Source: Candidatus Magasanikiibacteriota bacterium
GTDB lineage: Bacteria > Patescibacteriota > Patescibacteriia > Magasanikbacterales > UBA922
DNA: 64,000 nt
Assembly (NCBI GenBank): GCA_003510435.1
Contig: DOMK01000013.1
Span: 12,135 to 76,134, forward strand
Reading direction: 5' to 3'
Positions 4,546 to 64,000 of this stretch are shown here, one piece after another (within the stretch, counting starts at the first letter, position 1; each line of letters starts with the position of its first letter). The position numbers and the translations under genes are program-made. Under the pieces are notes generated by a model, which saw nothing but the letters and a program-made list of their open reading frames with translations, searched no databases and was not told the DNA's origin.

Positions 4546-6395
4546 AAACTCCTCCGCCCAATTCAGACCAAAAAAGACAAATTATGGGAGCAATCCTTAG
4601 TCAGATTGTGGCCAAACAAATACTCCCGGCTTTATTAAAAGAAGAATTTGCTAAACATCTAATAAACCCAGCAAATTTTCTACCAAATTCAATAAATGAA
4701 ACTCTGGCCGTAGATCCAGCTCAATATATCAGCCCTGTCCTTTCTAATATAGGCATGCAAAACCCAAACATAAATCCTAAAGACATTGTTGGTAATTTTG
4801 GATCAAATAATTCTAGTTTACAACCATCAACCACAGCTGATTCAACTATTCCAAACCAAGGTGGTAATACTGGAACTTCAACTCCAGATACCACACCACA
4901 GGCAGATGCTGACCAAAATGGATCTCCTGCTAATAAAAATGGTCAATCAAAAAATGATTCAGACCAACCACAGGCAGATGCAGATGCAGATAAAGACAAA
5001 GAAAATCCTGATGACGATGATAAAAAAAATGAAGCCAAAAATCCAGAAGCAACGACTGATTTAAATAATCTTGATACGCCAGCTGATAAAGCTGTTAATA
5101 CAGATCAACCGACTGGTTCTGGTCAAAATCAAAATGTACCTGGATCAACCACCCAGCCTGGACAACAAGTTGGTCCTGGTGGTGTGGTAACCAATCCAAC
5201 TCAAGCAGGAGCACCTGGACAAAATACTCCTGGGAGTAATACACCAAATTCACCAACCACACCAGGAGCTAATGCTCAACCTGGTATGAATCCAAATGTT
5301 AGTAATCCAGATACAAAAGATGATAATGCAGATGCAGGCAAAGATGAAAATATTGATGAGGACGATAAAAAACCAGATGAAGACAAACTAGATGGTGAGG
5401 GTGATGATAAAAAAGAACCTGATGATAAAGATAAAGACGGTGACAAAAAAAATGATGAGAATGATAAAAATAGTGGTGACAAAACAAAACCAGATGAAAT
5501 ACCCTCAGGTTATTACGACCCTTATGCCAATTCAAAAGATGGTACGCATGCGGGATATTTTAATCCTGATGCGTCAAAAGAACAAACACCAGTCATAGAT
5601 GAAACAGGAAGAGACAGAGGAGCTACCATAACCCCAGAAAAAAAACCAGGGGATGGTTATTACGACCCTTATGCCAATTCAAAAGATGGTACGCATGCGG
5701 GATATTTTAATCCTGATGCGTCAAAAGAGGACGAAGATAGGGATGAAAGCAGTGACTCTCCATTTGGTGTTGAAAACCAAGACTTTGGCGGTATGAATAT
5801 GCCAAATCAACAAGAAGACCAGGAATCAGATGACGATACTCCACAAGATGGTAAAAGTGAACAACAGCCAGATAAAAAATCAGATTCTGATAATGACGAA
5901 CAAAAAGAAAAAAAACAAAAAATGGAAAACGAAAAAGGAAGCATGACTCAATTTATAAATCAAAATATAATAAACAGAACAAAGATAAACGGCCTAGAAC
6001 AAGAGATAAAAAATTTAGAAAACCAAGCTAATGATCTAAATAAAAAAAATGATGATTTAGATAAAAAAATTAAAGAATTGGAACCAGAATCAATTAAAAA
6101 ATTAAGGGGCATACAAACATTTATGGGAGGTTGTAGTTGTTGTTCTTGTATTTTTTTACCCATATCTCTTATTTCCTCAATATCAACAGCCTTAATTGAA
6201 TTATTTATCCAAATTAAAAAAAAGAAAGAACATGAAAATAAAGCTGAGATTGAAAAACTTGAAGAAGAAAAAAAAGCAAATACTAAAAATCTTAAACAAA
6301 TTAATAAACAAATTAATAAAATAGCTAGGGATATATACAATTTGCGAAACACAGGAATGATGAAAGGAATGGCCAATAATATGTTCAGACACTAG
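4542..6395 (+). CDS. hypothetical acidic low-complexity protein with an internal exact repeat and a C-terminal Cys-rich hydrophobic segment
   Basis: 617 aa, rich in P/T/G/D/K/N. The 25-aa unit GYYDPYANSKDGTHAGYFNPDASKE occurs twice. A C-terminal coiled coil flanks GGCSCCSCIFLPISLISSISTALIELF. Confidence 0.45.
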   Translation: MKTPPPNSDQKRQIMGAILSQIVAKQILPALLKEEFAKHLINPANFLPNSINETLAVDPAQYISPVLSNIGMQNPNINPKDIVGNFGSNNSSLQPSTTADSTIPNQGGNTGTSTPDTTPQADADQNGSPANKNGQSKNDSDQPQADADADKDKENPDDDDKKNEAKNPEATTDLNNLDTPADKAVNTDQPTGSGQNQNVPGSTTQPGQQVGPGGVVTNPTQAGAPGQNTPGSNTPNSPTTPGANAQPGMNPNVSNPDTKDDNADAGKDENIDEDDKKPDEDKLDGEGDDKKEPDDKDKDGDKKNDENDKNSGDKTKPDEIPSGYYDPYANSKDGTHAGYFNPDASKEQTPVIDETGRDRGATITPEKKPGDGYYDPYANSKDGTHAGYFNPDASKEDEDRDESSDSPFGVENQDFGGMNMPNQQEDQESDDDTPQDGKSEQQPDKKSDSDNDEQKEKKQKMENEKGSMTQFINQNIINRTKINGLEQEIKNLENQANDLNKKNDDLDKKIKELEPESIKKLRGIQTFMGGCSCCSCIFLPISLISSISTALIELFIQIKKKKEHENKAEIEKLEEEKKANTKNLKQINKQINKIARDIYNLRNTGMMKGMANNMFRH

Positions 6396-9535: not shown

Positions 9536-12136
9536 CTACTCCAAATGTACTCCATCTTCCCAATCCCTCACTTTACTTACAAGTGAAGGATTTTTTTTGA
9601 AGTCAATTCCTCGTGCCAAATCACGTGATAATTTTATCAAATCCATATCCTGCATGGTGGCGAGTTTAAAAGGTGGTAGACCACTCTGGCTTGTGCCATA
9701 AACTTCACCCGGGCCACGAGTTTGGAGATCATACTCAGCAATTTTAAAACCATCAGTATTTTGAGAAAAAAATTGCAATCGTGCCAAAGATTTTTCATTG
9801 TCAGTGTCAGTAAATAAAAAACAATATGATTGATGTAAAGCTCTACCCACCCGACCACGGAATTGATGGAGCTGGGCCAAGCCAAACCTGTCTGCGCCTT
9901 CTATCATCATCACGACAGCATTAGGAATATTTACTCCCACTTCTACGACTGATGTGGAAACTAGTATATCTATTTTTCCACTCGCAAAATCAGCCATAGT
10001 GTTTTCTTTTTCATTTGGCTTTAATTTGCCATGTAAATAACCAACACGTAAATCTTTAAATATCTCCTCAGATAATTTTTTATATTCACTCATTACACTT
10101 TTTTTATCTAAGGAGTAAGGAATAAGGAGTAAGGAATTATTATCAACAAAATCATCATCACTTTTTCCTTTTTCCTTTTTCCTTTTTCCTTCATCAATCA
10201 ACGGACATATCACAAACACCTGTCTCCCCTGTTTAACTTGTGAACGAATAAAATCATAGGCCTTGTTTCTATTTTCACTATCTACCACTCTAGTATCAAT
10301 TGCTTTTCTACCCACTGGCATTTCATTAATAATAGATAAATCCAAATCACCATACAAAGTAAGAGCAAAGGATCTGGGAATCGGGGTCGCAGTCATAGAC
10401 AACAAGTGAGGCCTCATTGCTGACTGACGCAGACTAGACGCAGACTCATTATTACCACGGGCAATATCATAAACAATTCTTTGAATATCCACGCTCTCGT
10501 GAGAAAAATTTATTAACAAAGCCAACTTATACAGTGATCCTTTTAAATATGTCCAAACCTGTCTATTTTCTCTACTACCAACAAACGGAAGGGCTTTTAA
10601 TTCAATGATAATTTTATCTTCAACCACAAAATCTGGACGATAAATTCCTATTTTTTTATTTTCATATTTTATATCTAATACTTTTTCTTTTTCAAATTTT
10701 ATTCCTTCTTTTTTAAATTCCTCTTCCAATGCATTTTGATAAATTACTTCTTTATGTCCTAAACCTAAATTCTTTTTAACATTAAAAATACATCCTCTTA
10801 TTTTGTAAGTCAAATCTTTATATAAAAATCCACTTTTACTTTCCTTCTCCTGTTGTTCTTCCTCTTCTGCGTCGTCTGCGTAAGTCTGCGTAAGTCTGCG
10901 TCGTTGTTCTACTCCGAATCGATGTTGTTCATCTATAATTACTAAACCTAAATTTTTAAACTGTACTTTTTCTGATAATAGAGCGTGGGTTCCAATAATC
11001 AAGTTTATTTGCCCAGTTTTAATTTGTTTAAGTAAATCTTTTTTAATCAAAATACTAGAAGATCGGTGATCACTGATCACTGATTGAGAACGTGTCAACA
11101 GCGCTATTTTAACTTTATCTTCCAACAGCTTTGTCAGCGAATCAAAATGTTGCACGGCCAATATCTCGGTCGGCGCCATTATCACTGCTTGATAATTATT
11201 CAAAACTGTATTATAAAGCGCCATCGCTGCCACGACAGTTTTTCCACTTCCCACATCACCTTCTAACAATCGATTCATAGGTTCATTTTTTTCCAAATCA
11301 CGCAAAATATCCCAAGCCGACACTTTTTGGGCTTTGGTAAGCTGAAAAGGTAAAGAACTAACAAACTCTTTTATTTTTTCTTGCTGAAATTTTATTTCCC
11401 AAGCTTTTGATCGTTTCAAAGATTGACGAATCATTTCCGCGCGTAATTGTAAAATAAATAGTTCTCCAAATTTCAAACGCTTTTTTGCTTGATTTAAGTC
11501 TATTTCATCTATTGGAAAATGGATACCACGCACCGCTTCGGCCAGATAAATCAAATCTGCTTTTTCTAAAATTTCATCTGGTATCCATTCTTTTAGTAAA
11601 TCATGAGTCAAATAAATTATTTGACTAACTAAAAACCTTAATTGTTTATTAGTAACTCCAGTCGTGAGATGATAAATTGGGACAATCCTGGCAGTATGGG
11701 TAGTGTTTTTTTCTCCCAAAGCTTTTTGTTTGGTTTCTTTTTCATAAGACGGCGATGCCATTTGTTTGCCTAGTTTTCCAATTGATAATTTGCCTGATAG
11801 ATAAACTGTATCACCAGGTTTAAAATTCCGAGTAATAAAAGGCTGGCCAAACCAAACAATTTTTAATTTTCCAGTTTCATCATAAACAATCGCCTCTGTC
11901 ATAATTGTTCGTCTTTTAAAAATCCGCCGATTGGAAATAATCTCTATTTTCGCTTTAATTGTCACTTCTTCCCCTACTTCCAAATCAGCAATATTCTTGG
12001 TACTACTATAATCTTGATAGCGAAAAGGTAAATAAAACAACAAATCCTGAATAGTATTTATACCAAGATTTTTTAAATGCCTTTCCATCTTTTTGGCAAT
12101 ATGGTTGATTTGTCCAATAAGTGTGTCTAATTGCAT
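9536..12136 (-). CDS. recG: ATP-dependent DNA helicase RecG carrying an in-frame PD-(D/E)XK (GxxExxY-type) domain insertion
   Basis: 866 aa. Walker A GSGKT, DEQH box, MTATPIPR motif III and an N-terminal wedge region. About 165 extra aa lie between DEQH and motif III. Confidence 0.85.
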   Translation of the reverse strand: MQLDTLIGQINHIAKKMERHLKNLGINTIQDLLFYLPFRYQDYSSTKNIADLEVGEEVTIKAKIEIISNRRIFKRRTIMTEAIVYDETGKLKIVWFGQPFITRNFKPGDTVYLSGKLSIGKLGKQMASPSYEKETKQKALGEKNTTHTARIVPIYHLTTGVTNKQLRFLVSQIIYLTHDLLKEWIPDEILEKADLIYLAEAVRGIHFPIDEIDLNQAKKRLKFGELFILQLRAEMIRQSLKRSKAWEIKFQQEKIKEFVSSLPFQLTKAQKVSAWDILRDLEKNEPMNRLLEGDVGSGKTVVAAMALYNTVLNNYQAVIMAPTEILAVQHFDSLTKLLEDKVKIALLTRSQSVISDHRSSSILIKKDLLKQIKTGQINLIIGTHALLSEKVQFKNLGLVIIDEQHRFGVEQRRRLTQTYADDAEEEEQQEKESKSGFLYKDLTYKIRGCIFNVKKNLGLGHKEVIYQNALEEEFKKEGIKFEKEKVLDIKYENKKIGIYRPDFVVEDKIIIELKALPFVGSRENRQVWTYLKGSLYKLALLINFSHESVDIQRIVYDIARGNNESASSLRQSAMRPHLLSMTATPIPRSFALTLYGDLDLSIINEMPVGRKAIDTRVVDSENRNKAYDFIRSQVKQGRQVFVICPLIDEGKRKKEKGKSDDDFVDNNSLLLIPYSLDKKSVMSEYKKLSEEIFKDLRVGYLHGKLKPNEKENTMADFASGKIDILVSTSVVEVGVNIPNAVVMMIEGADRFGLAQLHQFRGRVGRALHQSYCFLFTDTDNEKSLARLQFFSQNTDGFKIAEYDLQTRGPGEVYGTSQSGLPPFKLATMQDMDLIKLSRDLARGIDFKKNPSLVSKVRDWEDGVHLE

Positions 12137-16200: not shown

Positions 16201-16245
16201 AATAATACTAATAATAAATACGAATTATACTGATGCTATACAAAT

Positions 16246-16647
16246 ATGAATAATACTGGAGAAAAATTAATTTATCCGGATTTATCTTATAAAATAAATG
16301 GAATCCTCTTTGCCACCCATAATGAATTAGGCCCCTATGCCAGAGAAAAACAAATTGGTGATGTAATAGAAAAATTATTAAAAGAACAAGAAATACCCTA
16401 CCTCAGAGAATGTCAAATTGGCAATAGCGGAAATGTATTGGACTTTATTATAGATAATAAAATTATTCTTGAACTAAAATCAAAACGTTTTATAATAAGA
16501 GCAGATTATGAACAAACACAAAGGTATCTGCAAGCCACCCAGCTTAAACTTGCGATCTTAGTCAATTTTAGGACACAATATCTTAAACCAATCAGGATAG
16601 TAAAAATAGATACTCAATTTAAAGAAAAATTCATAAAAAAATATTAG
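16246..16647 (+). CDS. PD-(D/E)XK nuclease-like protein of the GxxExxY type; paralogue of the recG insert
   Basis: 133 aa with a D..ELK core (DFIIDNKIILELK). It aligns along its length with the domain inserted in RecG (for example YKINGILF~YKIRGCIF and LAILVNF~LALLINF). It is bracketed by inverted repeats. Confidence 0.55.
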   Translation: MNNTGEKLIYPDLSYKINGILFATHNELGPYAREKQIGDVIEKLLKEQEIPYLRECQIGNSGNVLDFIIDNKIILELKSKRFIIRADYEQTQRYLQATQLKLAILVNFRTQYLKPIRIVKIDTQFKEKFIKKY

Positions 16648-16686
16648 TATAGCATCAGTATTATTAGTATAAATTAGTATATTAGT
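16648..16686. repeat. 39-bp A/T-rich repeat (tatagcatcagtattattagtat...attagt), copy 1, directly upstream of pth
   Basis: Near-identical to 17340-17380. Its core ctgatgctatac also occurs inverted at 16226-16241, upstream of the GxxExxY gene. Confidence 0.7.
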
Positions 16687-61433: not shown

Positions 61434-62621
61434 TTAGTTGATAATCTTGGTTACAACACCAGAAGCGACTGTTCTACCACCCTCGCGGATAGCAAAACGG
61501 ACTTTTTCTTCCATGGCAACTGGTACGATAAGCTTAATTTTTAGATTAAGAGTATCACCAGGCATTACCATTTCAGTACCTTCTGGCAAAGTGACTTCAC
61601 CAGTCACATCGGTAGTACGGATATAAAATTGTGGCTTATAACCATTGAAAAATGGTTTATGACGGCCACCTTCTTCTTTGGTAAGAGTATAAACTTCAGC
61701 TTCAAACTCTGTATGAGGAGTAATCGAACCAGTTTTAGCCAAAACCATACCACGTTCAACATCTTCTTTCTTTGTACCACGAAGCAAAATACCAGCATTG
61801 TCACCAGCCTCACCTTGGTTAAGAGATTTGTTAAACATTTCTACGCCTGTAACGGTAGTTTTGCTAGTTTCTGGTCTAATACCAACGATTTGAACCTCGT
61901 CACCAATCTTGACAATACCTCTTTCAATACGACCAGTTACTACAGTACCACGGCCTTCAATTGAGAAAACGTCTTCAATTGGCATCAAGAAATCCTTGTC
62001 CAAATCACGTTGTGGCTGAGGAATGTATTCATCCAAAGTGTTCAAAAGTTTCATAATGGCTTCACTGTATTCACCATTTGGATCTTCTAGAGCTTTTAGA
62101 GCTGAACCACGGATAATTGGAGTAGTATCTCCAGGGAAATCATATTTCTTTAGTAAATCTTTGATTTCTTCTTCTACCAAGTCAATCAATTCTGGATCTG
62201 TCACTTGGTCAACCTTATTTAAGAAAACAATGATATAAGGCACACCTACCTGGCGAGCCAACAAGATGTGTTCGCGAGTCTGAGGCATAGGACCATCAGC
62301 AGCAGACACTACCAAAATAGCACCGTCCATTTGAGCAGCACCAGTAATCATGTTCTTGACATAATCAGCATGGCCTGGACAATCAACGTGAGCATAGTGA
62401 CGTTTTTCGGTTGCATACTCCACATGAGCTGTGGCAATAGTAATACCACGAGCTTTTTCTTCTGGAGCAGAATCGATTTCGTCAACGCTTTTGGTTTGAG
62501 CGATCAAACCTCTAGCTGCAGCTACCTTCAAAATAGCAGCTGTAAGTGTAGTTTTACCATGATCAACGTGACCAATAGTACCTACGTTTAAGTGTGGCTT
62601 GGACCTATCAAAGTCTACCAT
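61434..62621 (-). CDS. tuf: elongation factor Tu
   Basis: 395 aa with [17 protein letters not shown] and NKVD motifs. Confidence 0.95.
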
Positions 62622-62750
62622 ACTTCTAAAATTTACCGCACTGTCTCCGAGTGGTCAGGACAGATTTTTAATCCAGCGGACTTGATTATAATTTTAGGCT
62701 ATATTTAGCCAAATTTTTGATTAACAAAAATGCGTACTTTTACGCGTGAT

Positions 62751-62780
62751 AATTATATACAAATCTTAAGTATAAGTCAA
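62751..62780 (-). promoter_or_regulatory. near-consensus promoter TTGACT-N17-TATAAT upstream of tuf
   Basis: The minus strand reads cttgact tatacttaagatttgta tataat about 130 nt upstream of the tuf ATG. A small hairpin gcgta...tacgc lies near the start site. Confidence 0.5.
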
Positions 62781-62853
62781 GGGGATATGGTGGGGACAAA
62801 CCCTAATCCTGAGCGTAGTGAAGCGAAGCGAAACGGAGCCGAAGGATCCCCTT
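62779..62853. repeat. GC-rich element with 8-bp palindromic ends (aaggggat ... atcccctt)
   Basis: About 75 nt. Its right part (cgaaggatcccctttttct) resembles 26040-26075 (cgaaggtggggagggatcccttttct). Confidence 0.5.
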
Positions 62854-63062
62854 TTTCTCTGCACTAAAAAAGTCTTAAATTTCTAATATCTAATTTCTAA
62901 TTAACCTAATAAAATACCAAATAACAAAATCCAAATTCCAAATCAATTTTAAACTTAAGATTACTAAATTAATATCCACACCACTTACATTGACAACTCT
63001 CTCTCTCTGTTTGTTAGGATAAGATGTCGTGCATCGAACGCACGAAGATGAAGGAGGCAGAC

Positions 63063-63395
63063 ATGGCGATTGTCACCATCCGGTTGTACCGGAAAAATGG
63101 CAAAAGGGGGGTTGAGGTAATCAAAAAAAAGCATTACCCGCGCCTCCAACGGTCACTTACCCGCTACATGGCCTCGGTCGATGGAGAACACCTCGCCCGC
63201 TCATGGAACACAGCAGGGCTGGCCGAGGTAGACGGTGAATGGTTTGTCACCGTCGATGGAGATGGTAAGGCCAGCATGCCGGAAAAACTGAGAAGCCATC
63301 TCTGGATCTACTATGGCTTCAACAGGTTCCTAGCAAGGATCTACAAGGGCCTAACCAGTGACGATGAACACCTTCCCGCCTTTCGCCCCTCCTAG
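63063..63395 (+). CDS. GC-rich 110-aa hypothetical soluble protein (mini-cassette 4)
   Basis: MAIVTIRLYRKNGKRGVEVIKKKHYPRL.... RBS AAGGAGG 5 nt upstream. A TTGACA box lies at 62990-62995, with a weak -10 TAGGAT after a 19-nt spacer. Very GC-rich relative to its neighbours. An alternative upstream ATG at 63024 lacks an RBS. Confidence 0.45.
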   Translation: MAIVTIRLYRKNGKRGVEVIKKKHYPRLQRSLTRYMASVDGEHLARSWNTAGLAEVDGEWFVTVDGDGKASMPEKLRSHLWIYYGFNRFLARIYKGLTSDDEHLPAFRPS

Positions 63396-63654
63396 CGTTC
63401 GCTTCGCCCCGGTTCAGGGGCAACATGCCGGTTGCGCGTCAGCCGATGACCGAGAGGGAAAACCCTCCGGGTGTCGGAGGGTGTGAGCATGCGGACAATA
63501 CAACGAAAGAATCGTCCACCACAGCTAGATTTTCATTATTGAAAATTTAACTAAGGAGTTTGGGACGATTTTTTTGTTTACACAAGCAATCCTATCCCCT
63601 AACCCCTTTCCCCTACAAAAGGGCAAGGGGAATTAAAGCCCCTCCACTTTTTAA

Positions 63655-63674
63655 GGGGAGGGGTTGGGGTGGGG
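63655..63674 (+). other. canonical G-quadruplex-forming motif GGGGAGGGGTTGGGGTGGGG, with complementary C-tracts 60 nt upstream
   Basis: Four G4 tracts separated by 1-2 nt loops, directly seen. It is preceded by cccctaacccctttcccct and cccctcc tracts that can pair with it. Confidence 0.6.
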
Positions 63675-63708
63675 TTTTATTCCTTATTCTTTATTCCTTA
63701 TTCCTTTT

Positions 63709-63927
63709 TTACACCGGTTCCTCATAAAACACCGGCTCTTCATTTTCTCCCAAAGGTTCTTCTAGCCAATCAGCTGTGTTTTCTTCAGTTTTTTTATAAG
63801 GAATATTTTGTGGTCCAGTAATACTCTCTTCACCAATGTCATTATAATTAAAATCAAAATCTGGTATGTCCTCTACTTTAATTTCATCAGCATCTTTTTT
63901 TGAAAAAAATTCACTTGGTATCTCCAC
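63709..63927 (-). CDS. acidic hypothetical protein, likely N-terminally truncated by the window edge
   Basis: D/E-rich. The open frame continues to the end of the window. Confidence 0.3.
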   Translation of the reverse strand: MEIPSEFFSKKDADEIKVEDIPDFDFNYNDIGEESITGPQNIPYKKTEENTADWLEEPLGENEEPVFYEEPV

Positions 63928-64000
63928 ACCCTCATCGTCTTCATCTTCATTATCAAAATCAAAAGAATCATCTTCATCATCTAACCAATTTGGTGTATTG

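What the first reader, a model, noticed from the sequence alone, without database searches (positions are those of the whole stretch)
10411..10903. In-frame ~165-aa PD-(D/E)XK (GxxExxY-type) domain inserted into the RecG helicase core, with inverted heptamer repeats at the boundaries
Between helicase motif II (DEQH, aa 402-405) and motif III (MTATPIPR, about aa 581) RecG normally has about 15 residues. Here there are about 165. The extra segment has a D-x(n)-E-L-K core (RPDFVVEDKIIIELK) and a GHKEVIY (GxxExxY) motif. It aligns along its length with the stand-alone 133-aa ORF at 16246-16647.

At the DNA level the 5' boundary carries tandem cgcagac heptamers (about 10862-10900). The 3' boundary carries the inverse gtctgcgt twice (about 10420-10445). 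This looks like terminal inverted repeats of an inserted element. The reading frame is maintained and helicase motifs IV-VI follow.

The sequence shows no intein splice signatures (no N-terminal Cys/Ser, no terminal HN-Cys/Ser/Thr). This looks like a mobile nuclease-domain cassette domesticated as an internal domain of a DNA-repair helicase. I know of no described example.
Basis: partly seen in the sequence, partly recalled or inferred. Interest (0 to 1): 0.8.

Follow-up and report, generated by a model that had tools for sequence, protein, structure and literature searches.

The report
Mobile in-frame nuclease cassette in RecG
The extra 150 residues in this RecG helicase come from a selfish DNA cassette, a small nuclease gene bounded by inverted arrays of short repeats, which is read through as part of the host protein and sits in frame in many unrelated housekeeping genes of Patescibacteria; I found no description of it in the literature I could search.

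Summary
RecG (window 9536-12136, minus strand, 866 aa) carries a complete GxxExxY / PF13366 PD-(D/E)XK domain between helicase motifs II and III. The nearest relative (84% identical) lacks exactly window 10412-10900. The borders carry inverted arrays of the octamer ACGCAGAC, which occurs nowhere else in the 64 kb.

This is not a RecG-specific domesticated domain. The same cassette, with the same arrays (CGCNGAY upstream, RTCNGCG downstream, about three copies each, 10-11 nt period), lies in frame in LepA, LeuRS, a Val/Ile-type aaRS, GatB, glycosyltransferases, transketolase, asparagine synthase, a P-type ATPase and a Wzy-like protein.

- In all 72 unique loci the reading frame runs through both junctions.
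- The catalytic residues are invariant, and dN/dS is 0.04-0.17.
- Nuclease-less mini-elements (left plus right arrays) and one-unit scars also exist.
- The free-standing GxxExxY gene at 16246-16647 is a related element with its own 39-nt inverted arrays. It too is absent from the nearest relative.

The best reading is a translation-dependent selfish element with non-autonomous derivatives. It combines features of in-frame palindromic elements and of homing endonucleases. How it moves is inferred, not shown.

The parts
9536..12136 (-). recG host gene (866 aa) with all helicase motifs intact
   Evidence: Invariant motif columns in the 40-sequence alignment.
10412..10900 (-). The whole cassette, defined as the indel relative to the nearest insert-free relative (L082, encoding P0002). 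It replaces 39 nt of loop-coding sequence.
   Evidence: blastn and MAFFT alignment.
10866..10904 (-). Left (5') array: four units of (A)CGCAGA(C) at 10-nt spacing, translated in three different frames as RRRL-TQT-YAD-DAE
10829..10865 (-). Acidic, low-complexity linker (EEEEQQEKESKSG). Predicted disordered (pLDDT below 50 for aa 420-436).
10466..10828 (-). GxxExxY / PF13366 PD-(D/E)XK nuclease core (aa 437-557). Catalytic residues are E463, D502, E512 and K514.
10419..10446 (-). Right (3') array: two exact GTCTGCGT units plus one degenerate unit (GTCAGC) at 10-11 nt spacing, translated as SASSLRQSA
16209..16679 (+). A second, related element lying between der and pth. It is a free-standing 133-aa GxxExxY ORF (16246-16647) tightly flanked by 39-nt inverted arms (16209-16247 and 16641-16679, 85% complementary). 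The arms are built of ATAC / GTAT-type units at a period of about 10 nt. The element is absent from the nearest relative.

Best explanation
The insert is one copy of a selfish mobile cassette found in Patescibacteria (CPR bacteria).

Anatomy (shown). The cassette has a left array of 1-8 units of CGCNGA(C/T) at a 10-11 nt period, a short variable linker, a PD-(D/E)XK (GxxExxY) nuclease reading frame with no start or stop of its own, and a right array of the complementary unit (G/A)TCNGCG.

Expression (shown by frame conservation, inferred for the protein). The cassette has no expression signals. It is translated as part of whatever host protein it sits in. The array-encoded peptides act as disordered linkers, and the nuclease folds as a separate domain hanging from a surface loop. 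In RecG that loop lies between motifs II and III, and the helicase core stays intact.

Mobility (inferred from comparative data). The cassette has entered many unrelated genes, is present or absent among close orthologues, leaves one-unit scars, and has nuclease-less derivatives made of left plus right arrays. Only in-frame copies in tolerant loops of needed genes survive. There the element gains expression and is protected from imprecise deletion.

Mechanism (hypothesis). The encoded nuclease is the element's own mobility enzyme. It would recognise the periodic arrays, or the hairpin or cruciform they can form, and make the breaks that lead to two outcomes: copying into empty alleles by homologous repair (homing-like) and occasional movement to new sites.
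For: Anatomy:
- Domain identity.
- Arrays: in 72 unique loci there are on average 2.9 units upstream and 3.0 downstream in the correct orientation, against 0.18 in the wrong one. The modal spacing is 10-11 nt.
- The units are read in all three frames upstream (29/90/48), so conservation is at the nucleotide level.

Translation through the element:
- The ORF is continuous across both junctions in 72 of 72 unique loci.
- In the full-length AF2 model the core has pLDDT 84-93, the linkers (aa 420-436 and 558-571) are below 50, and the RecG core is confident.

Many hosts:
- LepA, LeuRS, class I aaRS, GatB, GT4 and Wzy_C.
- GT2, transketolase, asparagine synthase and a P-type ATPase.
- All carry the same border peptides.
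- Hosts are intermixed in the cassette tree.

Presence and absence:
- The nearest RecG (84% identical, syntenic contig) is empty. About 25 of the 120 top RecGs carry the insert.
- Identity of host flanks and of cassette cores correlates only moderately among 38 RecG loci (r 0.47).
- Synonymous codon identity to the empty allele falls from about 0.70 to 0.51 in the windows flanking the insert.

Derivatives:
- Scars: CGCAGAC-A-GTCGGCA in L164 and CGCGGAC-A-GTCGGCA in L166. L165 has 3 left and 3 right units and no nuclease.
- In-frame mini-elements lie at two other RecG loops and next to a cassette.

Selection on the enzyme:
- E, D, E and K are invariant in 69 cores, and dN/dS is 0.04-0.17.

Generality:
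- Two free-standing family members have tight 39-nt and 52-nt inverted flanks with different unit sequences.
Against: - No biochemical evidence shows that this family cuts DNA, or what it cuts.
- No transposase that uses only a PD-(D/E)XK nuclease is known (my own knowledge, not tested here).
- I could not define a target-site duplication.
- All 53 RecG copies and all 23 LepA copies sit at one site per gene. This can be explained by a few old insertions plus vertical descent and recombination, without frequent transposition.
- The central base of the unit is only partly complementary between the two arrays (r about 0.5). This weakens a pure base-pairing role but does not prove protein binding.
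- The invariance of catalytic residues is inflated by ascertainment, because the metagenome scan used the GHKE motif and kept the 80 best hits.
- The cassette tree is an unbootstrapped NJ tree of 121 residues.
- The drop in synonymous identity rests on about 50 codons per window.
Confidence: 0.6

Rival explanations
1. The nuclease is a domesticated accessory domain of RecG. It was recruited to work with the branch-migration helicase, for example to cut the junctions that RecG remodels.
For: The domain is intact and under strong purifying selection. It sits in a DNA-repair helicase. A weak, non-significant sequence match to T7 endonuclease I, a junction-resolving enzyme, was the only PDB sequence hit (E 0.72).
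Against: The same cassette with the same border arrays is in LepA, aaRSs, GatB, glycosyltransferases, transketolase, asparagine synthase, a P-type ATPase and a membrane Wzy-like protein. The closest RecG lacks it, and most RecGs of the clade lack it. Scars show that it can be lost with RecG kept. A different nuclease (DUF559) occupies the same loop in a Flavobacteriales RecG.
Confidence: 0.07
2. The mobile unit is the pair of arrays, a MITE moved in trans by a transposase encoded elsewhere. On this view the GxxExxY reading frame is passenger cargo. It could be an addiction or stabilising module, or a nuclease with a host-level role.
For: Nuclease-less array pairs exist at several sites and are in frame. 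No PD-(D/E)XK-only transposase is known (own knowledge). Every end carries multiple periodic sites, as in transposons whose ends bind a dedicated transposase (the comparison is from own knowledge).
Against: No candidate transposase is linked in any locus examined. The nuclease is the only conserved gene between the arrays and is strongly conserved. Distant free-standing family members carry their own, different flanking arrays. That fits co-evolution of enzyme and ends, although only two cases were examined.
Confidence: 0.2
3. The element is an intervening sequence removed after transcription. The two arrays pair into a long stem, as in rRNA intervening sequences. The stem is cut and the mRNA rejoined, so mature RecG lacks the insert.
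For: The arrays pair into a 21-bp terminal stem in both the MFE and the centroid RNA fold. Patescibacteria are known for insertions and introns in rRNA and tRNA genes (PMC11270868, PMC13011429).
Against: The reading frame is continuous through both junctions in 72 of 72 unique loci despite variable numbers of units. That would not be needed if the segment were removed from the mRNA. The nuclease frame has no start codon of its own and depends on read-through. No Rfam intron family is hit in the window. The overall fold is no more stable than shuffled sequence (z -1.0).
Confidence: 0.04
4. The insert is an ancient lineage-specific RecG subdomain, inherited vertically and lost repeatedly. The repeats would then be mere low-complexity linkers.
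For: All RecG copies are at one site. There is some correlation between host and cassette divergence (r 0.47).
Against: The same cassette and arrays occur in many other genes. The arrays are conserved as DNA in three reading frames. The nearest relative's empty allele has the canonical loop sequence shared by most RecGs of the clade. Some pairs have flanks 75% identical but cores 57% identical, and others the reverse.
Confidence: 0.05

Closest known systems
Rickettsia palindromic elements (RPEs): in-frame MITE-like insertions in protein-coding genes
   Same: Both are short elements with palindromic or inverted ends, inserted in frame into unrelated housekeeping genes and translated as part of the host protein at positions compatible with its fold (PMC10969869 summarises RPEs). 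The nuclease-less mini-elements found here (76-104 nt) look very much like this.
   Different: RPEs encode no enzyme, and their mobilising activity is unknown. Here a full-length version carries an intact, conserved PD-(D/E)XK nuclease between the ends. The ends are arrays of a heptamer with a 10-11 nt period. The hosts are Patescibacteria.
Inteins carrying homing endonuclease domains
   Same: Both are selfish in-frame insertions at conserved sites of needed proteins, often DNA-metabolism proteins. Both encode a nuclease, are patchily distributed among orthologues, and recur at the same site in one gene.
   Different: There is no Hint or splicing domain and no splice-junction residues (junction sequences), so the insert should stay in the mature protein. 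The nuclease is PD-(D/E)XK rather than LAGLIDADG or HNH. The element has inverted repeat arrays and non-autonomous derivatives, which inteins lack.
PD-(D/E)XK-type homing endonucleases (I-Ssp6803I; the Vsr-like I-Bth0305I)
   Different: Those enzymes are encoded in self-splicing introns or between split inteins (own knowledge). They are not read through as host-protein domains, have no flanking arrays, and belong to different sequence families.
REP sequences with RAYT transposases (REPtrons), and transposons with several binding sites per end (Tn7 with its PD-(D/E)XK TnsA; Mu)
   Same: In each, a nuclease gene is flanked by inverted short repeats, and many enzyme-less repeat copies occur elsewhere. 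Each end has multiple repeated sites in inverted orientation. Tn7 gives a precedent for a PD-(D/E)XK nuclease in transposition (own knowledge).
   Different: RAYTs are HUH/Y1 enzymes and REPs are extragenic. TnsA works together with a DDE transposase. None of these elements is translated in frame inside host genes.
TIGR04256 / PF13366 free-standing GxxExxY proteins
   Same: The insert is a full-length member of this family. The two free-standing members examined are also tightly flanked by inverted repeats.
   Different: The family is listed with unknown function (PMC3424549, table entry 114). I found no description of the in-frame embedded form or of the flanking arrays.

Membership tests
PD-(D/E)XK nuclease superfamily, PF13366 (PDDEXK_3) / TIGR04256 (GxxExxY) | Match to the family HMMs above the curated cut-offs, over the full model length | tested here: met
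   PF13366 scores 109.3 bits against a cut-off of 22, model positions 1-116 of 117. TIGR04256 scores 115.4 bits against a cut-off of 35, positions 1-116 of 116.
PD-(D/E)XK nuclease superfamily, PF13366 (PDDEXK_3) / TIGR04256 (GxxExxY) | Catalytic signature: E in the first helices, then D ... (D/E)xK on the central strands | tested here: met
   GHKE (E463), RPDF (D502) and ELK (E512, K514). These are invariant in 15 RecG inserts and in 69 cassette cores from several host families.
PD-(D/E)XK nuclease superfamily, PF13366 (PDDEXK_3) / TIGR04256 (GxxExxY) | Restriction-endonuclease-like alpha-beta-beta-beta-alpha-beta fold | tested here: met
PD-(D/E)XK nuclease superfamily, PF13366 (PDDEXK_3) / TIGR04256 (GxxExxY) | Metal-dependent nuclease activity | not testable with these tools
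   This needs biochemistry.
RecG helicase | Equivalog HMM above the cut-off, with wedge domain, helicase motifs I-VI and the C-terminal domain | tested here: met
   NF008168 scores 792.6 against 718 and TIGR00643 scores 670.7 against 659.4. RecG_wedge, DEAD, Helicase_C and RecG_dom3_C are all hit. Motif columns are invariant.
Intein | Hint domain; Cys/Ser at the N-terminal junction; His-Asn followed by Cys/Ser/Thr at the C-terminal junction | tested here: not met
   No Hint or intein Pfam hit. The junctions read EQR|RRLTQT and SAMR|PHLLS.
Homing endonuclease gene | Presence or absence at one precise site among orthologues, including close relatives | tested here: met
   The 84%-identical RecG is empty, and about 25 of 120 RecGs are occupied at the same loop.
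Homing endonuclease gene | Lateral spread with co-conversion of flanking host sequence | tested here: inconclusive
   Synonymous identity to the empty allele drops from about 0.70 to 0.51 next to the insert. Host and cassette divergence are only moderately correlated (r 0.47). The donor was not identified.
Homing endonuclease gene | Residence in a self-splicing intron or intein, or as a free-standing gene between genes | tested here: not met
   The cassette is read through in frame inside the host ORF, with no intron hit and no intein hit.
Homing endonuclease gene | Cleavage of the empty target allele | not testable with these tools
   This needs biochemistry.
MITE / TIR transposable element (RPE-like in-frame element) | Terminal inverted repeats | tested here: met
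   Inverted arrays in the window and in 72 unique loci.
MITE / TIR transposable element (RPE-like in-frame element) | Copies at many unrelated sites, including non-autonomous derivatives | tested here: met
   At least 12 host protein families. Mini-elements and scars exist. Within this 64-kb window there is only one copy of this array type.
MITE / TIR transposable element (RPE-like in-frame element) | Target-site duplication | tested here: inconclusive
   In RecG the cassette replaces 39 nt of loop sequence, and no duplication is visible. The intergenic site of the second element cannot be aligned with the relative.
MITE / TIR transposable element (RPE-like in-frame element) | A known transposase class (DDE, HUH, serine or tyrosine recombinase) encoded by the autonomous copy | tested here: not met
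   The only reading frame between the arrays is the PD-(D/E)XK domain.

The most novel reading that the evidence does not exclude
This is a previously unrecognised class of autonomous mobile element. Its single gene, a PD-(D/E)XK nuclease, has no promoter, start or stop codon and is made only as an internal domain of the host protein it has invaded. The nuclease itself acts on the 10-11 nt periodic heptamer arrays at the element's ends, or on the cruciform they form, to excise, copy or home the element. It also mobilises nuclease-less in-frame mini-elements in trans. On this reading much of the large GxxExxY / PF13366 family (8222 representatives at E below 1e-3) would be the enzyme of such elements. 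Many oversized housekeeping proteins of Patescibacteria would then be explained as carriers.
Probability: 0.35. Interest if true: 0.9.

Novelty: new variant of a known kind. Interest (0 to 1): 0.8.

Why it matters
- It gives an origin for unexplained extra domains and loop expansions in essential proteins of ultra-small Patescibacteria. They would be selfish DNA living inside reading frames.
- It offers an enzyme-carrying counterpart to the in-frame palindromic elements of Rickettsia, whose mobilising activity has never been identified. It also shows an intein-like lifestyle without protein splicing.
- It suggests a testable function for a large nuclease family of unknown function (PF13366 / TIGR04256).
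- It supplies natural examples of where a 120-residue domain can be tolerated in RecG, EF4, aminoacyl-tRNA synthetases and GatB.
- For annotation, NCBI already names some of these RecG proteins simply 'GxxExxY protein'. Recognising the cassette would fix such misnaming.

Tried and rejected
- The genome-contig scan with the insert plus RecG flanks was dominated by ordinary RecGs, because the scan patterns came from the helicase motifs. It gave only one same-type locus (L001). It did reveal a DUF559 insert at the same loop in a Flavobacteriales RecG (L002).
- The viral-contig scan found one weak relative in a giant-virus bin and nothing informative.
- The PDB sequence search gave only a non-significant T7 endonuclease I match (E 0.72). 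I do not use it as evidence for junction resolution.
- PADLOC gave no hit, so there is no link to known defence systems. PHROGs gave only weak endonuclease matches.
- Rfam gave only tRNAs in the window.
- The whole-insert RNA fold is no more stable than shuffled sequence (z -1.0), although the terminal stem is predicted.
- I looked for a target-site duplication by aligning both window elements with the nearest relative's empty sites. None could be defined.
- Literature searches for GxxExxY, PDDEXK_3, DUF559, in-frame insertions in Patescibacteria, MITEs in CPR bacteria and related terms found no description of this element. The library lacks many subscription-journal papers, so prior work cannot be excluded.
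Full report
**1. What is in the window**

The minus-strand ORF at 9536-12136 encodes an 866-aa RecG. RecG equivalog models match above their cut-offs, but in two pieces that break at about residue 417. Between the pieces, PF13366 (PDDEXK_3, aa 440-553, 1.8e-31) and TIGR04256 (GxxExxY, aa 441-555, 1.8e-33) match over their full length. DEQH is at aa 402-405 and MTATPIPR at aa 581-588. The insert is 31% identical (E 1e-14) to the free-standing 133-aa ORF at 16246-16647, which is also a PF13366 / TIGR04256 member. No intein or Hint family is hit.

At the DNA level, the octamer ACGCAGAC occurs five times in the 64 kb. Three copies are on the gene strand at 10874-10901 and two are in the opposite orientation at 10427-10445. 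There are none elsewhere. The chance expectation is 0.31, and 0 of 100 shuffles reached five (arms listed).

**2. The insert is an indel relative to the closest genome**

The best insert-free homologue is P0002, from a Candidatus Magasanikiibacteriota bin, at 84% identity and 727 aa. Its contig (L082) is syntenic with the window at about 85% nucleotide identity (dprA, pth, der, lytR, recG). It lacks exactly window 10412-10900 and has 39 nt there instead.

In relatives the stretch from DEQH to TATPIPR is 37 residues. In the window it is 187. So 163 codons replace 13.

The same contig also lacks the free-standing GxxExxY gene. The der-pth spacer is 141 nt in L082 and 486 nt in the window.

**3. 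Distribution in RecG**

Among the 120 best RecG homologues, about 25 carry PF13366 at the same loop, and these are 48-67% identical to the window protein overall. The closest RecG and most others have the canonical loop EQRKTIREKSGxxxTTPH.

The junction peptides of the occupied alleles are recognisably repetitive. Upstream they read TQTxAD, TRTNAD or RGQTQTEAD. Downstream they read SASSxRKSA or SPHQSASV.

**4. The same cassette lies in frame in many unrelated genes**

A metagenome scan with the nuclease core alone returned 80 loci with cores 57-75% identical to the window's. I added L001, L081, L083 and the window itself, giving 84 core hits.
- 53 are in RecG.
- 23 are in LepA/EF4.
- 2 are in LeuRS.
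- 1 is in a Val/Ile-type class I aaRS.
- 1 is in GatB.
- 1 is in a GT4 glycosyltransferase.
- 3 are in a Wzy_C (O-antigen-ligase-like) membrane protein.

Pfam confirmed the host identities, with host domains on both sides of the insert.

An exhaustive HMMER search of 1.84 billion representatives found 8222 relatives at E below 1e-3. The closest are embedded at varied positions in proteins of 300-900 aa. Ten of these were scanned against Pfam. They added GT2, further GT4 sites, transketolase, asparagine synthase and a P-type ATPase as hosts. All ten show the same junction peptides.

From the sequences and my knowledge of the E. coli orthologues, the LepA, LeuRS, ValRS-type and GatB insertion points correspond to turns of beta-hairpins. 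Examples are RGITIK...[insert]...LIDTPGH, and the position just before TTRPDT or TTRPET. That placement is an inference, not a measurement.

**5. The border repeats are a conserved, periodic, nucleotide-level feature**

In 72 unique loci, the 120 nt upstream of the core hold on average 2.9 units of NGCNGA(C/T). The 120 nt downstream hold on average 3.0 units of (G/A)TCNGCN. Units in the wrong orientation average 0.18 per flank. Spacing between successive units peaks sharply at 10-11 nt.

The stricter unit CGCNGA(C/T) is read in all three frames upstream (29/90/48 units per frame). In the window the same octamer is translated as RR, TQT and AD. The conservation therefore acts on DNA or RNA, not on the peptide.

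A variant ending in GAT upstream goes with ATC downstream (r 0.65). The central N is only partly complementary between the two sides (r about 0.5). Folded as RNA, the window's two arrays pair into a 21-bp terminal stem in both the MFE and the centroid structures, but the whole insert is no more stable than shuffled sequence (z -1.0).

A period of one helical turn and a free central base fit repeated protein-binding sites at least as well as a stem. I cannot decide between these two readings.

**6. The element is translated, and the enzyme is under selection**

In 72 of 72 unique loci the ORF continues for at least 60 residues, or to the contig end, on both sides of the core. This holds although the number of units varies from 0 to 8 per side. 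That is not expected if the segment were removed from the mRNA.

The catalytic E, D, E and K are invariant in 69 unique cores, and dN/dS is 0.04-0.17 in eight close pairs. There is a caveat. The scan pattern included GHKE and kept the best 80 hits, so decayed copies would have been missed.

**7. Signs of movement and loss**

(a) *Host switches.* In an NJ tree of the cores, LepA, LeuRS, GatB and Wzy copies are interspersed with RecG copies. The tree is unbootstrapped and is weak evidence.

(b) *Decoupling inside RecG.* Among 38 RecG loci, flank identity and core identity correlate only at r 0.47. Some pairs have 75% identical flanks and 57% identical cores, and others 53% and 76%. The window and P0003 share the same junctions (EQRRRLTQT... 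and ...RQSAxRPH) and have 84% identical cores, but only 65-68% identical flanks.

(c) *Possible conversion tract.* Against the empty allele, synonymous codon identity is about 0.70 at the gene ends and 0.51-0.52 in the windows next to the insert. This is suggestive only.

(d) *Scars.* Two RecG alleles with 35-residue spacers contain one left unit abutting one right unit: CGCAGAC-A-GTCGGCA in L164 and CGCGGAC-A-GTCGGCA in L166. Their flanks match occupied alleles such as L087. A third allele (L165) keeps three left and three right units around 33 nt, with no nuclease.

(e) *Mini-elements.* Array pairs of 76-104 nt without a nuclease lie in frame at two other RecG loops. One loop is in the wedge domain. 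The other follows the VICP motif in helicase domain 2. They occur in L098, L105 (two sites) and L135, and another lies directly beside a full cassette in L158.

**8. The free-standing relatives have the same architecture**

The window's ORF at 16246-16647 is bracketed by 39-nt arms (16209-16247 and 16641-16679, 85% complementary). The arms are made of ATAC... / ...GTAT units at a period of about 10 nt.

A free-standing member in L158 has 52-nt arms that are 83% complementary. Many free-standing representatives end in array-like peptides such as ...RKSA...SASLSA or ...KSAVIRSKSAAIRA.

The unit sequences differ between nuclease lineages. That fits co-evolution of enzyme and ends, but it rests on two cases examined at the DNA level.

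**9. Interpretation**

The claim of domestication for RecG does not hold, because RecG is one host among many. A Flavobacteriales RecG carries a different nuclease (DUF559, 1.6e-33) with different border repeats at the same loop, and a Polaribacter RecG has a nuclease-less version of that insert. This points to a permissive loop rather than a functional partnership.

My best reading (confidence about 0.6) is a selfish element that depends on read-through translation, tolerated in surface loops, with autonomous and non-autonomous forms. That the nuclease itself is the mobility enzyme acting on the arrays is a hypothesis. No PD-(D/E)XK-only transposase is known to me, no target duplication was found, and no biochemistry exists for the family.

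The rivals are:
- arrays moved by an unlinked enzyme, with the nuclease as cargo (0.2);
- a RecG-specific domesticated domain (0.07);
- an ancient vertically inherited subdomain (0.05);
- removal at the RNA level (0.04).

**10. Comparison with known systems, and novelty**

The closest known systems are these:
- *Rickettsia palindromic elements* are in-frame and palindromic but carry no enzyme (PMC10969869).
- *Inteins with homing endonucleases* share the lifestyle, but here there is no splicing domain.
- *PD-(D/E)XK homing endonucleases* share the fold but reside in introns.
- *REP/RAYT and Tn7/Mu-type ends* have a nuclease flanked by inverted repeats and several sites per end, but use different enzymes and are never in frame.

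PF13366 is listed with unknown function in the superfamily survey (PMC3424549). Work on Patescibacteria insertions covers rRNA and tRNA genes and LAGLIDADG or GIY-YIG enzymes (PMC11270868, PMC13011429). Searches for the family names and for in-frame elements in these bacteria found nothing that describes this cassette.

I rate it a new variant of known kinds, namely in-frame selfish elements and homing-type nucleases. There is a real chance (about 0.35) that it is a distinct class of mobile element.

Noticed in passing
window 16209-16679: The free-standing GxxExxY ORF (16246-16647) between der and pth is itself a small element. It has 39-nt inverted arms (85% complementary) built of ATAC / GTAT-type units at a period of about 10 nt. 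It is absent from the syntenic contig of the nearest relative, where the spacer is 141 nt rather than 486 nt.
   Followed up: yes
L002 3001-3630 (Flavobacteriales RecG); L047 3001-3306 (Polaribacter RecG): A different nuclease, DUF559 (PF04480, 1.6e-33), is inserted in frame at the same RecG motif II-III loop. Its border peptides differ (PSLILPKGK ... SLPFREVGGA). The Polaribacter RecG has a nuclease-less version of about 40 aa with the same kind of borders.
   Followed up: partly
Proteins P0019, P0022, P0024, P0027, P0031, P0033, P0037, P0043, P0055, P0059, P0071, P0073 (RecG homologues): These RecGs have motif II-III spacers of 50-59 aa instead of 37. The extra peptides (PLLGKERG, TSPLTPL, LSLALSSAEARE) look like translations of other small palindromic elements. 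The loop appears to be a general hotspot for in-frame insertions.
   Followed up: no
L098 3147-3226; L105 1535-1630 and 3144-3223; L135 1014-1117; L158 2416-2491: Nuclease-less mini-elements made of 2-5 left units directly followed by 2-4 right units (76-104 nt) lie in frame at two further RecG loops, one in the wedge domain and one after the VICP motif in helicase domain 2. Another lies next to a full cassette in a glycosyltransferase.
   Followed up: yes
L128 ORF 3-1253 (Wzy_C-like protein): Besides the full cassette, the N-terminal part of this protein contains QNAELRGQTRGTSRKSPYKSAV. This looks like another nuclease-less array pair.
   Followed up: no
L081 2742-2999: An 85-aa GIY-YIG ORF lies directly downstream of the insert-bearing RecG of P0003. 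It may be another small nuclease gene of the mobile kind.
   Followed up: no
L082, reverse strand of 1891-2100 (der-pth spacer of the nearest relative): A tandem repeat CCTTTCCGG (about four copies) lies in the spacer where the window has the free-standing GxxExxY element.
   Followed up: no
window aa 331-390 and 631-693 of RecG (about nt 10966-11146 and 10057-10246): Two segments of RecG are only 53-58% identical to the 84%-identical relative. The second has pLDDT below 50 (aa 648-678) and coincides with the loop that holds mini-elements in other RecGs. The window has no array units there.
   Followed up: partly
window 4974-4991: Tandem GCAGAT x3 on the plus strand. It resembles the array unit core but stands alone and has a 6-nt period, so it is probably unrelated.
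   Followed up: no
window 62001-64000 and 28000-64000: GC content rises to 0.42 in the last 2 kb, against 0.31-0.38 elsewhere. GC skew is persistently negative from about 28 kb onward. Rfam found only four tRNAs in the window.
   Followed up: no
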